DNA from: Candidatus Omnitrophota bacterium
GTDB lineage: Bacteria; Omnitrophota; Gorgyraeia; Gygaellales; Profunditerraquicolaceae
DNA: 33,353 bases
NCBI GenBank assembly: GCA_041651675.1
Contig: JBAZIT010000002.1
Span: forward strand, 1-33,353
Direction of reading: 5' to 3'
A model generated the notes under the pieces. It had not been told where the DNA came from, did no database searches, and worked only from the letters and a program-made list of their open reading frames with translations. Numbering within the stretch: position 1 is the stretch's first letter; every line of letters begins with the position of its first letter. Below, one piece after another: positions 973 through 5,593 of this stretch. The position numbers and the translations under genes are program-made.

Positions 973-1770
973 TTACAGCCCTAATTCCCGGCGCAGGTAT
1001 CTTTCATTCACCGGGCCGAAGTCTTCGGCTTCATCCGGGTTATTCATCAGAGAGGCAATGGTTGGACGGAAATATTTCTTGTTCCCGCAGCAGCCGTTAA
1101 AATAACCTACTCTTTCGCCTTTGGCGGTTAAGTCTCCCCAGAGTCTTTGCGCTTCTTCTTTGGTAAAAGCGCAATTAGGCGGCCCAGGTAAACAAAGCGC
1201 TGCTTCGCCCTGCGGACTCTCATCGCGCAGGCCTAAAGAATGGCCTAATTCATGCAGGAAGCCCTTGCTCAAGCTATCCTTATCTTTATACCTGTTCCTC
1301 CCTATGATTATTAAAGACAGCTTATCTATGGAAGAAAGCTCGGAGCAAGAGACAGAGCCTTGCGCGTCAAGGATAATTAGCTTGTAGGTGGCTTTAAGTT
1401 TAGAGGAAAGACTGCTGATAAAATCCTTGCGCACCCTGATAGGCGGGAAATCCTGGGATGGCTTAAAAACTACGCCTGCCTCTTCTTTTGAGAGATTGAT
1501 ATAGTAAAATGAGATATTGTTTAACTCATTAAACGGCTTGACCTTCCTTAAGCTCCCGATAAGAGCTTGGACATCTTCCTGGAAAGTTTTCTTGTCAGGA
1601 TAATTTAAAGGGCAGAAGACTAGGGTAAGCCGGGTATTTGCTTTAAGGGCAAACTCGCCTGCATAAGGCTTAATATCATAGGCGCTGACTCTAGAATAAA
1701 GCAAAAGAATAAGAAAGAAAAAACCGCCTATCTCTAGGCGCCTTATGCTTTTGCGCATACCCTGATCCAT
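973..1770 (-). CDS. secreted zinc metallopeptidase (HExxH; resembles the M64 IgA-peptidase-like family)
   Basis: 265-aa ORF with a hydrophobic N-terminal signal (GGFFFLILLLYSRVSA) and the motif HELGHSLGLRDE. The 5' end overlaps the avd stop. The start could be ATG 1770 or ATG 1758. Confidence 0.6.
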   Translation of the reverse strand: MDQGMRKSIRRLEIGGFFFLILLLYSRVSAYDIKPYAGEFALKANTRLTLVFCPLNYPDKKTFQEDVQALIGSLRKVKPFNELNNISFYYINLSKEEAGVVFKPSQDFPPIRVRKDFISSLSSKLKATYKLIILDAQGSVSCSELSSIDKLSLIIIGRNRYKDKDSLSKGFLHELGHSLGLRDESPQGEAALCLPGPPNCAFTKEEAQRLWGDLTAKGERVGYFNGCCGNKKYFRPTIASLMNNPDEAEDFGPVNERYLRRELGL

Positions 1771-2084
1771 CCTCCCAGCATCCTGCCTATCTCATCTATC
1801 TTTTTACAGATGATGCCGTATTTATTTATACTTATCAAATAAAAATCATTGGCCAGCCGGATAAATATCCGCAATTTTTCCAACTCCACACTTGCTTTTT
1901 TTAGATGCGGCCCTTTTATGCTTTCTTCATTGGCAGTAATGATATACTCTAAAACCCGTAAAAGAGTATCATAAATCCTCTTGCCTAAAACCGGCTTTTC
2001 GGATTTGGGAAATCCGGCTATCTCCCTATGCAGGTATTGTATTAAATCATAGGTTTTAGCGAATATCTTTAAATCGGCTAACAT
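1743..2084 (-). CDS. avd: DGR accessory variability determinant (Avd; four-helix-bundle / 23S rRNA-IVS-like family)
   Basis: 113 aa with an FPKSEKPVLGKRIYDTLLRVLEYIITANE-type signature typical of the four-helix-bundle (TIGR02436-like) family to which Avd belongs. GGAG lies 7 nt upstream of ATG 2084. The gene is adjacent to TR and RT. Confidence 0.8.
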   Translation of the reverse strand: MLADLKIFAKTYDLIQYLHREIAGFPKSEKPVLGKRIYDTLLRVLEYIITANEESIKGPHLKKASVELEKLRIFIRLANDFYLISINKYGIICKKIDEIGRMLGGWIRVCAKA

Positions 2085-2108
2085 AATCTTGCTCCGGATA
2101 AAAATAGC

Positions 2109-2155
2109 GCCGGCAGGTAGTTTTCATCGTTAAAGATTACTATCTATCTGCCGGC
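2109..2155 (-). promoter_or_regulatory. GC-rich inverted repeat between TR and avd (possible DGR-RNA structural element or attenuator)
   Basis: Arms are gccggcaggtag (2109..2120) and ctatctgccggc (2144..2155). That gives 8 perfect GC-rich bp plus 3 more after one mismatch (A.C on the minus-strand RNA, G.U on the plus), with a 23-nt loop. On the minus strand it is followed by GCGCTATTTTTAT and then the avd RBS. Confidence 0.45.
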
Positions 2156-2276
2156 TGTTTTTTATTCGGCCCTCAATTTCAGGGCGCAGGAATAAGTTTG
2201 TAGTTCTCTTTAGCGCGCGGTCTGCATCTCCTTAAAGACACAGAATATCTGGCGCCTAGAGAAAAATAGAGAACTG

Positions 2277-2397
2277 CTTGCAGCAAAGACAACCCTCGCC
2301 GATATTGTTGCTGTTCCATCCGCTGTTGCAGCCTCCGCCCGGCGGTCGGAAGAAGTTGTTGTTGTCGTTGTTGTTGCAGTTGCCCCAGGAACCGAGA
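2277..2397 (-). repeat. DGR template repeat (TR)
   Basis: 121 nt matching VR 3522..3645. Read in the VR frame it encodes LGSWGNCNNNDNNNFFRPPGGGCNSGWNSNNIGEGCLCCK with 10 AAC codons. It begins 11 nt after the RT stop codon (2411..2409). Confidence 0.9.
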
Positions 2398-2408
2398 GGA
2401 CAACCTTG

Positions 2409-3464
2409 TTATAACCTATCCCTTACAACAGGCATCAATACGAAATCCCTGAAAATCTTCTTTCTCAATCTATATGTATCTCCCTGCCTGGCATGCGCTA
2501 TCCATCCTTTTATAAAACTGCTGATCCGGCTTAGCGCTATTTCTTTTCTTACGAACCGCTCTTTCATATTCTTGAGCCTGCGCGCAAATCTTTTCGCATT
2601 CTCTTTTCGCAGTAAACGGTGGCTGGAAAATATCCTGAATCCCAAGAAATCTATGCCGCATTTTAAGGGGGTAACTGTTTGTTTCTTGGGATGGAGGCTC
2701 AATCGCAGCTTATCTTCCAGGAATCGCGCTATCCCTGCCTTGGCCTCCCGAAGCCTCCCCTTGGATAAATCCATCAGCACAAAGTCATCCATATAACGGA
2801 CATAATATTTTATTCTTAAATCATGCTTAACAAACTGGTCAAGGGGGTTTAAATACAGATTGGCAAAAAACTGACTGGTAAGATTCCCTATCGGGATTCC
2901 TTTTGTCTGTGGACTAAATAAACTTTCACCGGCAAGTATTCTCTTTATCAGCCAGATTACCTCTTCATCTTTTATTCTTTCGTTAATCAGGCCAAGCAGG
3001 ATACAATGGTTTATATTTTCAAAATACCTCCGGATATCCGCCTTAAATACATATATTTCGTTTTCATTCCCGCGGGATAATAATTCATGCTTAAACTCCT
3101 CAAGCCTTTTAATCGCCGCTAGTGTCCCCTTGTTTAACCTGCAGGCATAAGTGTCATAAATAAGCCTCTTATCAAAAATCGGCTCAATAACCCGGCATAA
3201 GGCATGGTGCACTACTCTGTCCCGGACAACCGCCGCAACTATTTCCCTCTTTTTAGGTTCATACACAAAAAACCTGTGTGGAGGCAAAGGAGTATAAGTA
3301 TGCTCAATAAGTTCATCCTGCAATTTGAGAAACTCTATTTCATAATTATACTCAAACTTAAGGACATCATCTTTAAATCGCTTGCCTTTGCGGAATGTTT
3401 TATAGGCGGCTAAAAGATTCTCAAACGAAACAACCCTCTCAAACAAATGCTTATACGTTTTCAT
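2409..3464 (-). CDS. DGR-type reverse transcriptase
   Basis: 351 aa carrying the RT motifs, including IGNLTSQFFANLYL (the [I/L]GxxxSQ motif characteristic of DGR RTs) and the YMDD catalytic box (YVRYMDDFVLM). It has no group II intron maturase or endonuclease-like tail. Confidence 0.93.
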   Translation of the reverse strand: MKTYKHLFERVVSFENLLAAYKTFRKGKRFKDDVLKFEYNYEIEFLKLQDELIEHTYTPLPPHRFFVYEPKKREIVAAVVRDRVVHHALCRVIEPIFDKRLIYDTYACRLNKGTLAAIKRLEEFKHELLSRGNENEIYVFKADIRRYFENINHCILLGLINERIKDEEVIWLIKRILAGESLFSPQTKGIPIGNLTSQFFANLYLNPLDQFVKHDLRIKYYVRYMDDFVLMDLSKGRLREAKAGIARFLEDKLRLSLHPKKQTVTPLKCGIDFLGFRIFSSHRLLRKENAKRFARRLKNMKERFVRKEIALSRISSFIKGWIAHARQGDTYRLRKKIFRDFVLMPVVRDRL

Positions 3465-3518
3465 TCAAAAACCAAAAGATTTCAGATTCTCAGATACCAG
3501 ATACCAAAAAAACCTTAA

Positions 3519-4199
<681 letters not shown>

Positions 4200-4269
4200 T
4201 CCTTAATTTAGGCACGGTGGACCTCCGATTTAACGTTTTAATATTGCTATTAATCTATGGTTAATATTC

Positions 4270-4312: not shown

Positions 4313-5593
4313 TCAGCGGTAGAATTTCTTATTCCCGTTCCTTGGCCGGTTGAATTTATGCCGGTCCGTATTGTGGCGCTGCTGCGGCTTAGCCTGAAAA
4401 GAGGATCCCCGGGATTCAATAAATTGCTCATGCGGAACTTCAGGATGCTTGGATATAGGAAGAGTGGAACGGATGATCTTTTCTATATCGCGGACATCCC
4501 GGCTCTGGTCAGGCGTGGCAAAAGAAACCGCATGCCCCTGCTTTCCGGCCCGGGCAGTGCGGCCGATACGGTGCACATAATTCTCCGCGTCCTCCGGAAG
4601 GTCGAAATTCACCACCAGCTCTATCCCGGTCACGTCAATACCCCTGGCAGCAATATCCGTCGCAACAAGTACCTTATACCTTCCGGATTTAAAACCGTCT
4701 AAGGCCTCTCTTCTCTGGCTCAGGGAGCGATTAGAATGAATTTCGGAAGCGCTATAGCCCATATCTTTGATTGAGCGCGTGATCTTCCTGGCGTTAAACT
4801 TGGTGCGGGAAAATAAAAGGACCGCGCCTTTATATTGGGCCAGCAGCTTACTCAAAAGGCGCAGCTTAGCTTCTTTCTTGACGATAAATAATTCCTGGGT
4901 AACATGCTCTGCGGTTGTTCCGGAAGGAGCGATCTCTACGGAAATAGGGAGTTTCATATACCTGGAGGCTATTTCCATAATTTCTTTGGGGATAGTCGCC
5001 GAAAATAACATAGTCTGCCGTGCCGCCGGCAAAAAACGCAAGATCTTATTGATCTGCGGAGCAAACCCCATATCCAGCATGCGGTCGGCCTCATCCAGCA
5101 CAAGCATCACTACCTGTTCCGGAAGAAAATTCCATTGCCCCATATGGTCAATGAGCCTGCCGGGAGTAGCCACCACTATCCGGGGGTTCCTGCGCAGGGC
5201 CATAACCTGCGGCTGCATCGGAGCCCCACCGATAAGGCAGGCTGTTTTCATCCCGAAGGCCCGGGCCAAGTCCTGGAAAGCCTCGTCGATCTGGATAGCC
5301 AGTTCGCGGGTCGGGGCAAGCACCAGGCCGATCCCTTTTTTCTGCTCAAGCAGCTGGACCATAGGTATAGCGAATGAATGCGTCTTGCCGGTCCCGGTCT
5401 GGGCCACCCCGATAAGGTCCTTACCCTGGATAGCTAAAGGAATGGCCTTAGATTGTATCGGCGTGGGCGTCTTGAATTTTATATGCTCCAGGATCTCCAG
5501 TATCTTCGGGGCAATACCCAAACCGTAAAAACTAGCGGCGCCGTTTTTATTCTCAGCCATATCGGTTTTATTAATCGCTTTATGGGGCATCAT
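4313..5593 (-). CDS. DEAD-box ATP-dependent RNA helicase (RhlE/CsdA-like)
   Basis: Motifs present: PTPIQ, AQTGTGKT, PTRELA, DEAD, SAT, HRIGRTARAG, and a basic C-terminal tail. The track starts at GTG 5596. I prefer ATG 5593, which overlaps the TGA of the upstream small ORF. Confidence 0.93.
   Translation of the reverse strand: MMPHKAINKTDMAENKNGAASFYGLGIAPKILEILEHIKFKTPTPIQSKAIPLAIQGKDLIGVAQTGTGKTHSFAIPMVQLLEQKKGIGLVLAPTRELAIQIDEAFQDLARAFGMKTACLIGGAPMQPQVMALRRNPRIVVATPGRLIDHMGQWNFLPEQVVMLVLDEADRMLDMGFAPQINKILRFLPAARQTMLFSATIPKEIMEIASRYMKLPISVEIAPSGTTAEHVTQELFIVKKEAKLRLLSKLLAQYKGAVLLFSRTKFNARKITRSIKDMGYSASEIHSNRSLSQRREALDGFKSGRYKVLVATDIAARGIDVTGIELVVNFDLPEDAENYVHRIGRTARAGKQGHAVSFATPDQSRDVRDIEKIIRSTLPISKHPEVPHEQFIESRGSSFQAKPQQRHNTDRHKFNRPRNGNKKFYR

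What the first reader, a model, noticed from the sequence alone, without database searches (positions are those of the whole stretch)
2277..2397. TR-to-VR differences are adenine-only, the TR is built from AAC codons, and VR carries one extra codon
I aligned TR 2277..2397 to VR 3522..3645 by hand and count 14 substitutions. All of them are at plus-strand T, which is A on the coding strand; no C, G or T position differs. In the VR frame the TR contains 10 AAC codons (LGSWGNCNNNDNNNFF...CNSGWNSNN...), the design that avoids stop codons during A-mutagenesis. If only those codons vary as NNC (15 amino acids each), the ceiling is about 15^10, or about 6e11 variants. Unexpectedly, VR has four codons (tac tac ggc ccc) where TR has three (aac aac aac), a 3-nt length difference. 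Faithful cDNA replacement should not produce that. It could reflect RT slippage on the AAC tract, drift after homing, or a consensus built from mixed VR alleles.
Basis: seen in the sequence. Interest (0 to 1): 0.7.

Follow-up and report, generated by a model that had tools for sequence, protein, structure and literature searches.

The report
DGR that also varies loop length
This is a working diversity-generating retroelement in an Omnitrophota chromosome. Its extra codon is real and is one case of a pattern across its close relatives, in which the retroelement changes the length as well as the sequence of a Tyr/Ser/Gly-rich loop; that behaviour is already described for a minority of DGRs.

Summary
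All fall on TR adenines (chance about 4e-9). There is also one 3-nt gap in an AAC AAC AAC run, and the TR has 10 AAC codons.

The surroundings form a complete DGR: target gene, RT, TR, Rfam RT-14 RNA, then avd.

The extra codon is not an artefact. Other assemblies that are 98.9-99.9% identical to the window outside the VR carry the same TR but four different VR alleles: +1, +1, +5 and +6 codons. In relatives with 74-89% RT identity, 18 of 20 distinct VR alleles differ in length from their own TR. Every difference is a net multiple of 3, 21 of 22 indels lie in the (AAC)3-GAC-(AAC)3 tract, and 94% of tract codons are NNC. Only 1 of 59 more distant DGRs shows a gap.

The likeliest cause is register slippage of the RT on the AAC tract during mutagenic cDNA synthesis. 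Wu et al. 2018 already reported TR/VR indels next to AAC in 7% of DGRs and proposed this model. The indel is therefore a known non-canonical DGR behaviour. What is new is how common it is in this clade, and that it is seen across populations with an unchanged TR.

The parts
3519..4199 (-). DGR target gene (226 aa from ATG 4199; alternative GTG start at 4215 with a GGAGG Shine-Dalgarno). It has a signal peptide, a conserved fibre-like N-terminal part, and a small Cys-rich C-terminal module that carries the VR.
   Evidence: ORF list. Named homologues are all Candidatus Omnitrophota proteins. Weak Mtd_N hit. AF2 model with the C-terminal 120-226 at pLDDT 74-90.
3517..3645 (-). Variable repeat (VR): the last 41 codons of the target plus the stop codon and 2 more bases of homology.
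   Evidence: Repeat family D1/D2. Exact alignment. Four different alleles in near-identical genomes.
3600..3623 (-). Variable-length tract of the VR: TAC TAC GGC CCC GAC AAC GCC AAC (YYGPDNAN). It has 8 codons against 7 in the TR.
   Evidence: It lies between two predicted beta strands (E181-194 and E199-203).
2409..3464 (-). DGR reverse transcriptase (351 aa), with IGNLTSQ and YMDD motifs.
   Evidence: RVT_1 E = 1.9e-17. Closest solved structure 8ub7_A, E = 1.1e-51. Motifs read in the translation.
2272..2397 (-). Template repeat (TR), non-coding, 11 nt downstream of the RT stop codon. It contains 10 AAC codons in the VR frame.
   Evidence: The TR has the same length in all 13 copies of this lineage (window plus 12 loci) and is identical in sequence except for 1-2 point differences in L003 and L008. 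It is the only TR-like sequence in the 33 kb window.
2355..2375 (-). TR slippage-prone tract (AAC)3 GAC (AAC)3: seven xAC triplets.
   Evidence: 21 of 22 indel events in 20 TR/VR pairs map here.
2109..2265 (-). Structured RNA directly 3' of the TR (Rfam RT-14, RF02921). It is the likely counterpart of the Sp (spacer) segment of the DGR RNA that positions and primes the RT.
   Evidence: cmscan 50.9 bits, above the gathering score. The same family lies next to the TR and RT in distant DGR loci. TR plus RT-14 RNA folds with z = -2.66. The priming role is inferred, not shown.
1743..2084 (-). avd accessory gene (113 aa).
   Evidence: Pfam bAvd E = 8.6e-23. NCBIfam DivGenRetAVD 106 bits, above the cut-off of 80.
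4147..4190 (-). (CT)22 dinucleotide repeat inside the signal-peptide coding part of the target gene. Its copy number varies between assemblies.
   Evidence: 22, 21, 19 and 17 copies in otherwise near-identical loci.

Best explanation
The region is an active, chromosomally encoded diversity-generating retroelement of a Candidatus Omnitrophota bacterium. On the minus strand the order is target gene (VR at its 3' end), RT, TR, RT-14 structured RNA, avd.

Proposed mechanism:
1. The TR is transcribed together with the RT-14 RNA.
2. The RT-Avd complex copies it into cDNA and misincorporates opposite adenines.
3. The cDNA replaces the VR.

The extra codon in the VR arises in this same transfer. In the (AAC)3-GAC-(AAC)3 tract, two of every three template bases are adenines that are often miscopied. 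The growing cDNA end is then held mainly by the G:C pair of each triplet and can re-anneal one or more triplets out of register. Slipping back re-copies AAC units, giving extra NNC codons. Slipping forward skips units.

Selection keeps the in-frame products. The tract appears to encode the connection between two predicted strands (a moderate-confidence model) in a small Cys-rich head domain, and loop lengths of 5 to 13 residues are observed among the alleles.

What is shown: the anatomy, the adenine specificity, the position and phase of the indels, a constant TR with variable VR length in near-isogenic genomes, and restriction of the pattern to this clade.

What is inferred: that the slip happens at the reverse-transcription step, and that RT-14 RNA plays the Sp/priming role.
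For: - DGR parts: RVT_1 and bAvd, DivGenRetAVD above cut-off, closest solved RT 8ub7_A at E = 1e-51, RT-14 RNA next to the TR.
- Adenine-only differences: 13 of 13, p = 3.5e-9.
- Activity: L001-L004 and L007 are 98.9-99.9% identical to the window over 2-4 kb. Differences fall almost only in the VR (13-28 alignment columns) and the (CT)n repeat (6-10 columns), with 0-2 elsewhere. The TR keeps its length in all 13 copies of this lineage and its sequence in 11 of them.
- Length variation: VRs of this lineage are +1, +1, +5 and +6 codons. Across 20 distinct TR/VR pairs from 6 TR lineages, 18 differ in length: +3 nt twelve times, then +9, +12, +15, +18 twice, and -6. All are net multiples of 3; chance for 18 is 2.6e-9. 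21 of 22 indels lie in the AAC tract. A seventh lineage (L126) is again +1 codon.
- 161 of 171 tract codons are NNC, so inserted codons look AAC-templated and independently mutagenised.
- The +1-codon alleles have the insertion before GAC (3 alleles), after GAC (4), or in more complex arrangements (5), so no single longer TR explains them.
- L018-L025 share one TR but have VR lengths of 0, +3, +9 and -6 nt.
- Controls: 1 of 59 more distant DGRs has a gapped TR/VR pair, Fisher p = 1e-14. Among 15 control loci with (AAC)3-4 runs, only that one has an indel.
- The slippage model for AAC-adjacent indels is published (PMC5758913; restated in PMC12875486).
Against: - No read-level or experimental data were available, so the step at which the length change arises is not observed.
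- The window's own allele (TAC TAC ...) could be a simple duplication in the DNA after homing.
- Some alleles need extra events. Three +1 alleles have lost the G of the TR's GAC codon. L016 and L018 carry compensated non-triplet indels. L001 has a 12-nt insertion outside the pure AAC tract. L027's insert contains non-NNC codons (GAG CTC TGG) that resemble upstream VR sequence.
- Exact 6-nt tandem duplications (L020 TACTCC x2, L002 GGCACC x2) are not what independent re-copying predicts, although Tyr/Ser/Gly bias makes chance repeats likely.
- Insertions greatly outnumber deletions (about 20 to 2), and +1 codon is the commonest state. Plain slippage does not predict either.
- In the one DGR studied biochemically (BPP-1), cDNA indels are rare: 0.1% and 'negligible'.
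- The clade's excess of indels could reflect a loop that tolerates length change rather than a slip-prone RT.
Confidence: 0.72

Rival explanations
1. The length change is DGR-dependent but arises at integration, not synthesis. The 3' end of the cDNA must pair with only about 16-22 nt of VR homology just upstream of the tract. Pairing or repair in the wrong register within the mutagenised, repeat-like tract creates indels, and selection keeps the in-frame ones.
For: The tract lies next to the 5' boundary of TR/VR homology, which starts at 2397/3645. Non-triplet compensated indels (L016, L018), loss of the GAC guanine in three alleles, and exact 6-nt duplications (L020, L002) fit messy junction repair better than clean triplet slippage. 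Wu et al. also list 'cDNA integration and resolution' as a possible source of non-canonical changes.
Against: Insertions occur both before and after the central GAC, and up to 18 nt are added with correct NNC phase. This looks like repeated templated copying rather than a single junction error. L001 also has a 12-nt insertion far from the junction, equal to the spacing of the AACAGC...AACAGC direct repeat in the TR.
Confidence: 0.17
2. The extra codon in this window arose after homing, by ordinary replication slippage or duplication in the VR DNA (TAC duplicated to TAC TAC). It has nothing to do with the retroelement.
For: The window's VR has an exact tandem TAC TAC at the indel site. 7 of the 12 +1-codon alleles contain some adjacent identical codon pair.
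Against: With 29% Tyr codons, about 61% of 8-codon tracts should contain an adjacent identical pair by chance, and 58% is observed (my own estimate from the codon counts, not a tool result), so there is no enrichment. L014, L025, L026 and L028 have +1 codon with no duplicated codon. The TR tract, a far better slippage substrate, has the same seven-triplet length in all six TR lineages of the 20-pair analysis and in L126, and the same sequence apart from AAC or TAC as the seventh triplet. Only the decaying L127/L128 cassette has a shortened TR. In near-isogenic genomes, length changes occur only in the VR and the (CT)n repeat.
Confidence: 0.07
3. The TR lost one AAC codon after the last homing event, so the VR preserves the older, longer template.
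For: This seems to have happened in a control gut DGR. The L088 TR has (AAC)3 and its VR has +3 nt, while the sister element L089 has (AAC)4. A decaying cassette (L127/L128) has a shortened TR.
Against: The 7-triplet TR tract is conserved across seven TR lineages with RT identity down to 74%. VR alleles attached to one and the same TR differ from each other in length and in where the insertion sits. A single TR deletion cannot give +1, +5 and +6 codons, or 0, +1, +3 and -2 codons, on the same TR.
Confidence: 0.02
4. The indel is an assembly artefact: a consensus or chimera built from a mixed population of VR alleles.
For: VRs are hypervariable in populations, and assemblies do break near this gene. 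Contig k141_2769166 ends just upstream of the target gene. No reads could be inspected.
Against: The window's VR allele is found base for base in another assembly (L007). The L003 allele is found in L004, in a different flanking context and with a TR that differs by one base. All 18 length-variant alleles keep the reading frame (p = 2.6e-9) and the NNC phase. Control DGRs from the same kinds of assemblies show gaps in 1 of 59.
Confidence: 0.02

Closest known systems
Bordetella phage BPP-1 DGR (mtd-avd-TR-brt), the prototype
   Same: Same parts: RT of the DGR type (closest solved structure 8ub7_A, E = 1e-51; from memory I believe this is bRT, but I could not verify it), Avd, a TR/VR pair with adenine-only differences, AAC-rich TR, VR at the 3' end of a surface-protein gene, and a structured RNA 3' of the TR.
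   Different: The gene order is target-RT-TR-RNA-avd. The element is chromosomal, not in a phage. No hairpin is detectable downstream of the VR. The target head is a small Cys-rich module with no significant match to Mtd or the CLec fold. VR length differs from the TR in most alleles, whereas BPP-1 cDNA indels are about 0.1%.
Non-canonical DGR mutagenesis with TR/VR indels (Wu et al. 2018, NAR 46:11, PMC5758913)
   Same: This is exactly the phenomenon they describe. TR and VR differ in length in 7% of their DGRs. 74% of those indels lie next to AAC. Multiples of 3 are commoner, frameshift cases also exist, and template slippage of the RT is proposed.
   Different: Their evidence is one TR/VR pair per genome. 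Here the same TR is seen with several VR lengths in near-identical genomes, and the incidence in the clade is 18 of 20 alleles rather than 7%. Their 3n-indel cases cluster near a cyanobacterial lineage (Lineage 4). This clade is from Omnitrophota. I did not place this RT in their tree.
Antibody CDR-H3 (junctional length and sequence diversity)
   Same: Functional analogy only: a Tyr/Ser/Gly-rich loop (Y 29%, S 15%, G 13% of tract codons) varies in both sequence and length (5-13 residues here) on a constant scaffold.
   Different: The mechanism is unrelated: reverse transcription from a template, not V(D)J joining with N-nucleotide addition. There is no homology.
Simple-sequence contingency loci (slipped-strand phase variation, e.g. 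Neisseria and Haemophilus surface genes)
   Same: The (CT)n tract in the 5' coding region of the target gene varies in copy number between near-identical genomes and shifts the frame relative to the two candidate start codons.
   Different: ON/OFF switching is not shown. Copy numbers come from short-read assemblies. I am not aware of earlier reports of such a repeat stacked on a DGR target (my own knowledge, not searched).

Membership tests
Diversity-generating retroelement (DGR) | Reverse transcriptase of the DGR type (RT domain with [LIV]GxxxSQ motif and YxDD box), encoded close to the TR | tested here: met
   RVT_1 E = 1.9e-17. IGNLTSQ and YMDD are present in the translation. Best solved-structure match is 8ub7_A at E = 1.1e-51, well ahead of group II intron RTs at 2e-28. 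The TR starts 11 nt after the RT stop. No NCBIfam DGR-RT model matched; only a below-cut-off group II hit was found.
Diversity-generating retroelement (DGR) | Imperfect repeat pair (TR/VR) whose differences fall on adenines of the TR | tested here: met
   13 of 13 substitutions at TR adenines, p = 3.5e-9. The same bias holds in 20 related pairs: 10-19 A-site changes against 0-3 others per pair.
Diversity-generating retroelement (DGR) | VR lies inside a protein-coding target gene (usually at its 3' end); TR is non-coding and invariant | tested here: met
   The VR is the last 41 codons of ORF 3519..4199. The TR is intergenic. It keeps its length in all 13 copies of this lineage and its sequence in 11 of them, while the VR differs.
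Diversity-generating retroelement (DGR) | Accessory protein (Avd or equivalent) | tested here: met
   bAvd E = 8.6e-23. NCBIfam DivGenRetAVD 106 bits against a cut-off of 80.
Diversity-generating retroelement (DGR) | IMH/IMH* asymmetry at the 3' end of VR and TR, which fixes the direction of transfer | tested here: inconclusive
   After TGCTGC, the VR reads CAGTAGTTAAGG and the TR reads AAGCAGTTCTCT. The CAG/AAG difference is the same in all alleles of the lineage, which is what an IMH/IMH* pair would show. Function is not testable here.
Diversity-generating retroelement (DGR) | Hairpin or cruciform downstream of the VR (needed in BPP-1; present in only some DGRs) | tested here: not met
   The 91 nt spanning the 3' end of the VR and the sequence downstream fold no better than shuffled sequence (z = 0.29). 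No inverted repeat was reported there. This is not a universal DGR feature (Wu et al.).
Diversity-generating retroelement (DGR) | Structured RNA flanking the TR (Sp-like) that supports priming | tested here: inconclusive
   Rfam RT-14 lies directly 3' of the TR. In distant DGR loci the same RNA lies between the TR (coordinates) and the RT. The fold has z = -2.66. A priming role is inferred only.
Diversity-generating retroelement (DGR) | Variable protein with a C-type-lectin (or Ig) fold that displays the VR | tested here: inconclusive
   AF2 model: C-terminal part at pLDDT 74-90, whole model 61.5. Foldseek against the PDB finds no match with E < 0.48; short Mtd hits have probability below 0.35. 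This is possibly a different small Cys-rich scaffold.
DGRs with non-canonical indel mutagenesis (Wu et al. 2018) | TR and VR differ in length, with the indel adjacent to AAC repeats of the TR | tested here: met
   A 3-nt gap inside AAC AAC AAC. 21 of 22 indels in the clade lie inside (AAC)3GAC(AAC)3.
DGRs with non-canonical indel mutagenesis (Wu et al. 2018) | The indel is produced by RT template slippage | not testable with these tools
   This needs cDNA sequencing or read-level data. Indirect support: NNC phase of the inserts, constant TR, several lengths per TR.

The most novel reading that the evidence does not exclude
In this Omnitrophota DGR clade, length diversification is a regular, evolved output rather than an occasional error. 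On this reading, the seven-triplet (AAC)3-GAC-(AAC)3 design and/or a slip-prone RT make most homing events add or drop triplets. The element would then explore loop length (5-13 residues) as well as sequence, a retroelement counterpart of CDR3 length diversity, on a small Cys-rich scaffold that is not a recognisable C-type lectin. The same gene also carries a (CT)n repeat that may switch it on and off.
Probability: 0.35. Interest if true: 0.65.

Novelty: new member of a known kind. Interest (0 to 1): 0.45.

Why it matters
DGRs are usually described, and detected by software, as substituting adenines at fixed length. The slippage idea for AAC-adjacent indels has stood as a proposal since 2018, and the 2026 paper read here (PMC12875486) still describes it as 'previously posited'.

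This clade offers a natural system in which nearly every VR allele is length-shifted against an unchanged TR. That makes the question directly testable with public reads or with a reconstituted RT-Avd/TR RNA. If the RT itself stutters, diversity estimates based on 4^A or 15^n understate what such DGRs can make. Gap-free TR/VR detection would miss or mis-score them. Engineered DGR mutagenesis systems could borrow the tract design to vary loop length. If instead the excess only reflects a loop that tolerates indels, the finding is a well-documented but ordinary example.

Tried and rejected
- A second TR or VR in the window: none found. An adenine-wildcard scan of both strands found only the known pair.
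- tRNA or phage context: no tRNAs, and the neighbouring genes are housekeeping, so this is not a prophage DGR.
- More VR alleles through the upstream helicase gene: only one contig, which ends before the target gene.
- Fold assignment of the target: no significant PDB match, so I do not call it a C-type lectin. The viral structure library was not searched.
- Solved-structure relative of Avd by sequence: none.
- Checking the identity of PDB entry 8ub7 in the literature: the term was not found.
- Hairpin downstream of the VR: none.
- Possible pairing between the TR-downstream CCAGATA and the VR-downstream TATCTGG: dropped, because L018 changes one side without the other.
- TR-deletion, assembly-artefact and plain DNA-slippage explanations: considered and ranked low for the reasons given under the rivals.
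- Homologous target genes without an adjacent RT or avd (L129, L130, L132) and a decaying cassette (L127/L128) were found. They gave no usable active TR/VR pairs.

Full report
**1. What is at the coordinates**

On the minus strand, 2277..2397 and 3522..3645 form an imperfect direct repeat. An exact alignment gives 121 nt against 124 nt. There is one 3-nt gap, which can be placed anywhere in the run AAC AAC AAC.

Every substituted TR base is an adenine. With 32 adenines in 121 nt, the chance of that is 3.5e-9. In the reading frame of ORF 3519..4199, the TR has 10 AAC codons. The VR reads TAC TAC GGC CCC where the TR reads AAC AAC AAC.

Three details qualify it:
Homology runs on to 2272/3517.
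- The final AAG to CAG change is the same in every VR allele of the lineage. It therefore looks like a fixed IMH/IMH*-type difference, not a mutagenesis product.
- The ceiling of 15^10 ignores seven other adenine-containing codons. The fixed-length ceiling is about 1e17.

**2. The surrounding element**

The repeat pair belongs to a complete DGR cassette:
- The ORF that ends in the VR is followed by a 351-aa reverse transcriptase. It hits RVT_1 and carries IGNLTSQ and YMDD motifs. Its closest solved structure is 8ub7_A at E = 1e-51, well ahead of group II intron RTs.
- The TR comes next, then a match to the Rfam family RT-14 directly 3' of the TR.
- An avd gene follows. It matches bAvd and scores above the cut-off of the NCBIfam Avd model.

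RT-14 also lies between TR and RT in distant DGR loci with the usual TR-RT order. The TR plus structured RNA module is therefore conserved while the gene order here is permuted. TR plus RT-14 folds better than shuffled sequence (z = -2.66). I found no hairpin downstream of the VR.

The rest of the window carries housekeeping genes. All named homologues of the target protein come from Candidatus Omnitrophota. This is a chromosomal DGR of an Omnitrophota bacterium.

The target has a signal peptide and a conserved N-terminal part, which it shares with 'tail fiber domain-containing' proteins that carry different C-terminal heads. Its own head is a small Cys-rich C-terminal module. An AlphaFold model of that module is moderately confident (pLDDT 74-90). 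It places the variable tract between two predicted beta strands. Foldseek finds no significant PDB match, so I cannot say that it is a C-type lectin fold.

**3. Is the extra codon real?**

Look-ups of the exact RT and Avd proteins returned twelve locus entries (eleven different contigs) from other assemblies.
- Five of the contigs cover the VR. They are 98.9-99.9% identical to the window over 2-4 kb.
- Almost all differences fall in the VR, or in a (CT)n repeat further upstream. Only 0-2 lie elsewhere.
- The TR has the same length in all thirteen copies. Its sequence differs only by one or two point changes in L003 and L008.
- The VR occurs as four alleles: the window's allele (also in L007), a different +1-codon allele (L003 and L004, which have different flanks and a one-base TR difference), a +5-codon allele (L002), and a +6-codon allele (L001).

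The window's 8-codon tract is therefore reproduced independently. None of the four alleles has the TR's length.

**4. The pattern in relatives**

A scan of metagenome contigs with the RT found cassettes of the same architecture with 74-89% RT identity. I aligned each VR to its own TR, treating adenines as wildcards. This gave 20 distinct TR/VR pairs from six TR lineages.

*Length differences*
- 18 of the 20 VRs differ in length from their TR: +3 nt twelve times, then +9, +12, +15, +18 twice, and -6.
- All net differences are multiples of three (chance 2.6e-9). Two alleles (L016, L018) reach this through compensating non-triplet indels.

*Position and codon phase*
- 21 of 22 indel events fall inside the tract (AAC)3 GAC (AAC)2-3.
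- 161 of 171 tract codons in the VRs are NNC. The added codons therefore look like adenine-mutagenised copies of AAC.

*Several lengths on one TR*
- Eight loci (L018-L025) share one identical TR yet have VR lengths of 0, +3, +9 and -6 nt.
- Among the +1-codon alleles, the insertion lies before the central GAC in three and after it in four. The other five are more complex. No single longer template explains them.
- A seventh lineage (L126) again shows +1 codon.

*Controls*
- The same scans returned 59 more distant DGRs with an adenine-biased TR/VR pair. Only one has a gapped alignment (Fisher p = 1e-14).
- Fifteen of these control loci have runs of three or four AAC in their TR, and only that one has an indel. 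In that case the sister element has a longer TR, which points to a TR-side change.

**5. Mechanism**

The data fit a transfer-coupled origin. The TR is constant, the VR varies in length, the inserts carry the AAC-derived phase, and events are confined to the triplet repeat.

The simplest mechanism is the one proposed by Wu et al. 2018. When the RT copies AAC repeats, two of every three incorporations may be mismatches. The primer end can then re-pair out of register. Selection then removes out-of-frame products.

Several features do not follow from plain slippage:
- the strong excess of insertions, and the +1-codon mode;
- the loss of the GAC guanine in three alleles;
- the compensated frameshifts;
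- exact 6-nt duplications in L002 and L020;
- non-NNC codons in the L027 insert;
- the 12-nt insertion in L001. Its length matches the spacing of an AACAGC direct repeat in the TR, but its sequence needs extra changes.

Mis-registered integration at the nearby 5' homology boundary is a real alternative for the step involved. I cannot separate the two without cDNA or read data.

Post-homing DNA duplication cannot be excluded for the window's TAC TAC alone. Adjacent identical codons occur at about the rate that the 29% Tyr bias predicts (my own estimate from the counts). Four +1 alleles have no duplicated codon. The TR tract would be a much better slippage substrate, yet it never varies.

TR deletion and assembly artefact are contradicted.

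**6. Comparison with what is known**

Wu et al. (PMC5758913) reported the following:
- length differences between TR and VR in 7% of 372 DGRs;
- 74% of the indels adjacent to AAC;
- multiples of 3 as the commoner class, with some frameshift cases;
- a template-slippage explanation;
- the suggestion that this is an additional mutagenic capability of some lineages.

A 2026 study still refers to that model as 'previously posited'. In the BPP-1 system, indels in cDNA are rare: 0.1% single-base events and 'negligible'.

This element is a new member of that kind.

What the present analysis adds:
- several VR lengths on one unchanged TR in near-isogenic genomes;
- an incidence near 90% in one Omnitrophota clade;
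- a target head that is not recognisably a C-type lectin.

Whether the high incidence reflects a slip-prone RT or tract design, or only a loop that tolerates length change, remains open.

**7. Verdict**

- Novelty: new member of a known kind.
- Interest is moderate (0.45). The DGR and the AAC-adjacent indel are textbook or published. The clade-wide length variation gives a direct natural test bed for a mechanism that has so far only been proposed.

Noticed in passing
window 4147..4190 (minus-strand CT repeat), starts at 4199 (ATG) and 4215 (GTG): A (CT)22 dinucleotide repeat lies inside the signal-peptide coding part of the DGR target gene. Near-identical loci have 21, 19 and 17 copies. With 22 or 19 copies the ATG is in frame. 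With 17 the GTG (which has a good GGAGG Shine-Dalgarno) is in frame. With 21 (L007) neither is, and the gene was called from an internal Met. This looks like slipped-strand phase variation stacked on a DGR target. The caveat is that copy numbers come from short-read assemblies.
   Followed up: partly
window 2109..2265 (-); L033, L035, L036, L042, L093 at about 2313-2479: The Rfam RT-14 RNA (RF02921) lies directly 3' of the TR here. In distant DGRs with the usual TR-RT order it lies between the TR and the RT. It appears to be a DGR-associated structured RNA, probably the Sp-like part of the DGR RNA. L030 instead carries RT-16 upstream of its RT.
   Followed up: partly
window 1743..4199 (-): The cassette order is target - RT - TR - RT-14 RNA - avd. 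avd lies downstream of the TR rather than upstream, unlike the avd-TR-RT and avd-RT-TR cores shown as major architectures by Wu et al.. All close relatives found share this order.
   Followed up: partly
window 973..1770 (-): A 265-aa ORF with an HELGH zinc-protease motif and a weak Peptidase_M64 hit overlaps the end of avd by 28 nt. It follows avd in every related cassette, including more distant ones (261-265 aa in L001-L010, L126, L127). It could be a conserved passenger or an accessory gene of this DGR lineage.
   Followed up: no
L016 510..632 and L018 82..204: Two VR alleles carry compensating non-triplet indels inside the tract (-1/+4 and +2/+1). A short stretch is therefore read in another frame, while the underlying DNA keeps the NNC phase of the TR. 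This suggests the raw events are not restricted to triplets.
   Followed up: partly
L027 513..647: The 18-nt insert of this VR contains GAG CTC TGG, which is not NNC-phased. It resembles the VR's own upstream GGC CTC TGC, including the already mutagenised CTC codon. This hints at re-copying of mutagenised sequence rather than of the TR.
   Followed up: no
L088 vs L089 (human gut DGRs): Sister elements differ in the TR itself. L088 has (AAC)3 and a VR 3 nt longer; L089 has (AAC)4 and no gap. Here the TR side appears to have changed, the opposite of the window's clade.
   Followed up: no
L127 3661..4326 and 4356..4500; L128: A decaying cassette. The ORF in the RT position is 221 aa with no RT domain hit. 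The TR is shortened to (AAC)3 TTC TTC TTC with a damaged 3' end, while the VR keeps a 7-codon NNC tract. A separate 489-aa RT gene (RVT_1 hit, not classified further) lies upstream.
   Followed up: no
P0012, P0013, P0016, P0017 against window 3900..4199: Other Omnitrophota proteins share a nearly identical N-terminal part with the target (81-95% identity over the first 90 residues or so for P0012 and P0013). They carry quite different C-terminal heads (C1q-like, Peptidase_S74/tail-fibre, others), which suggests a common stalk with exchangeable heads. No second such gene is present in the window.
   Followed up: partly
L129, L130, L132: Homologues of the target with the same Cys-rich head but no RT, TR or avd nearby. 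They lie next to radC and an HTH gene. They may be remote DGR targets or undiversified paralogues.
   Followed up: no
L125 (ERZ27247363 k141_2769166): In another assembly, the contig carrying the upstream helicase ends just before the target gene. The assembly breaks at or near the (CT)n/VR region, as expected for a population that is heterogeneous there.
   Followed up: no
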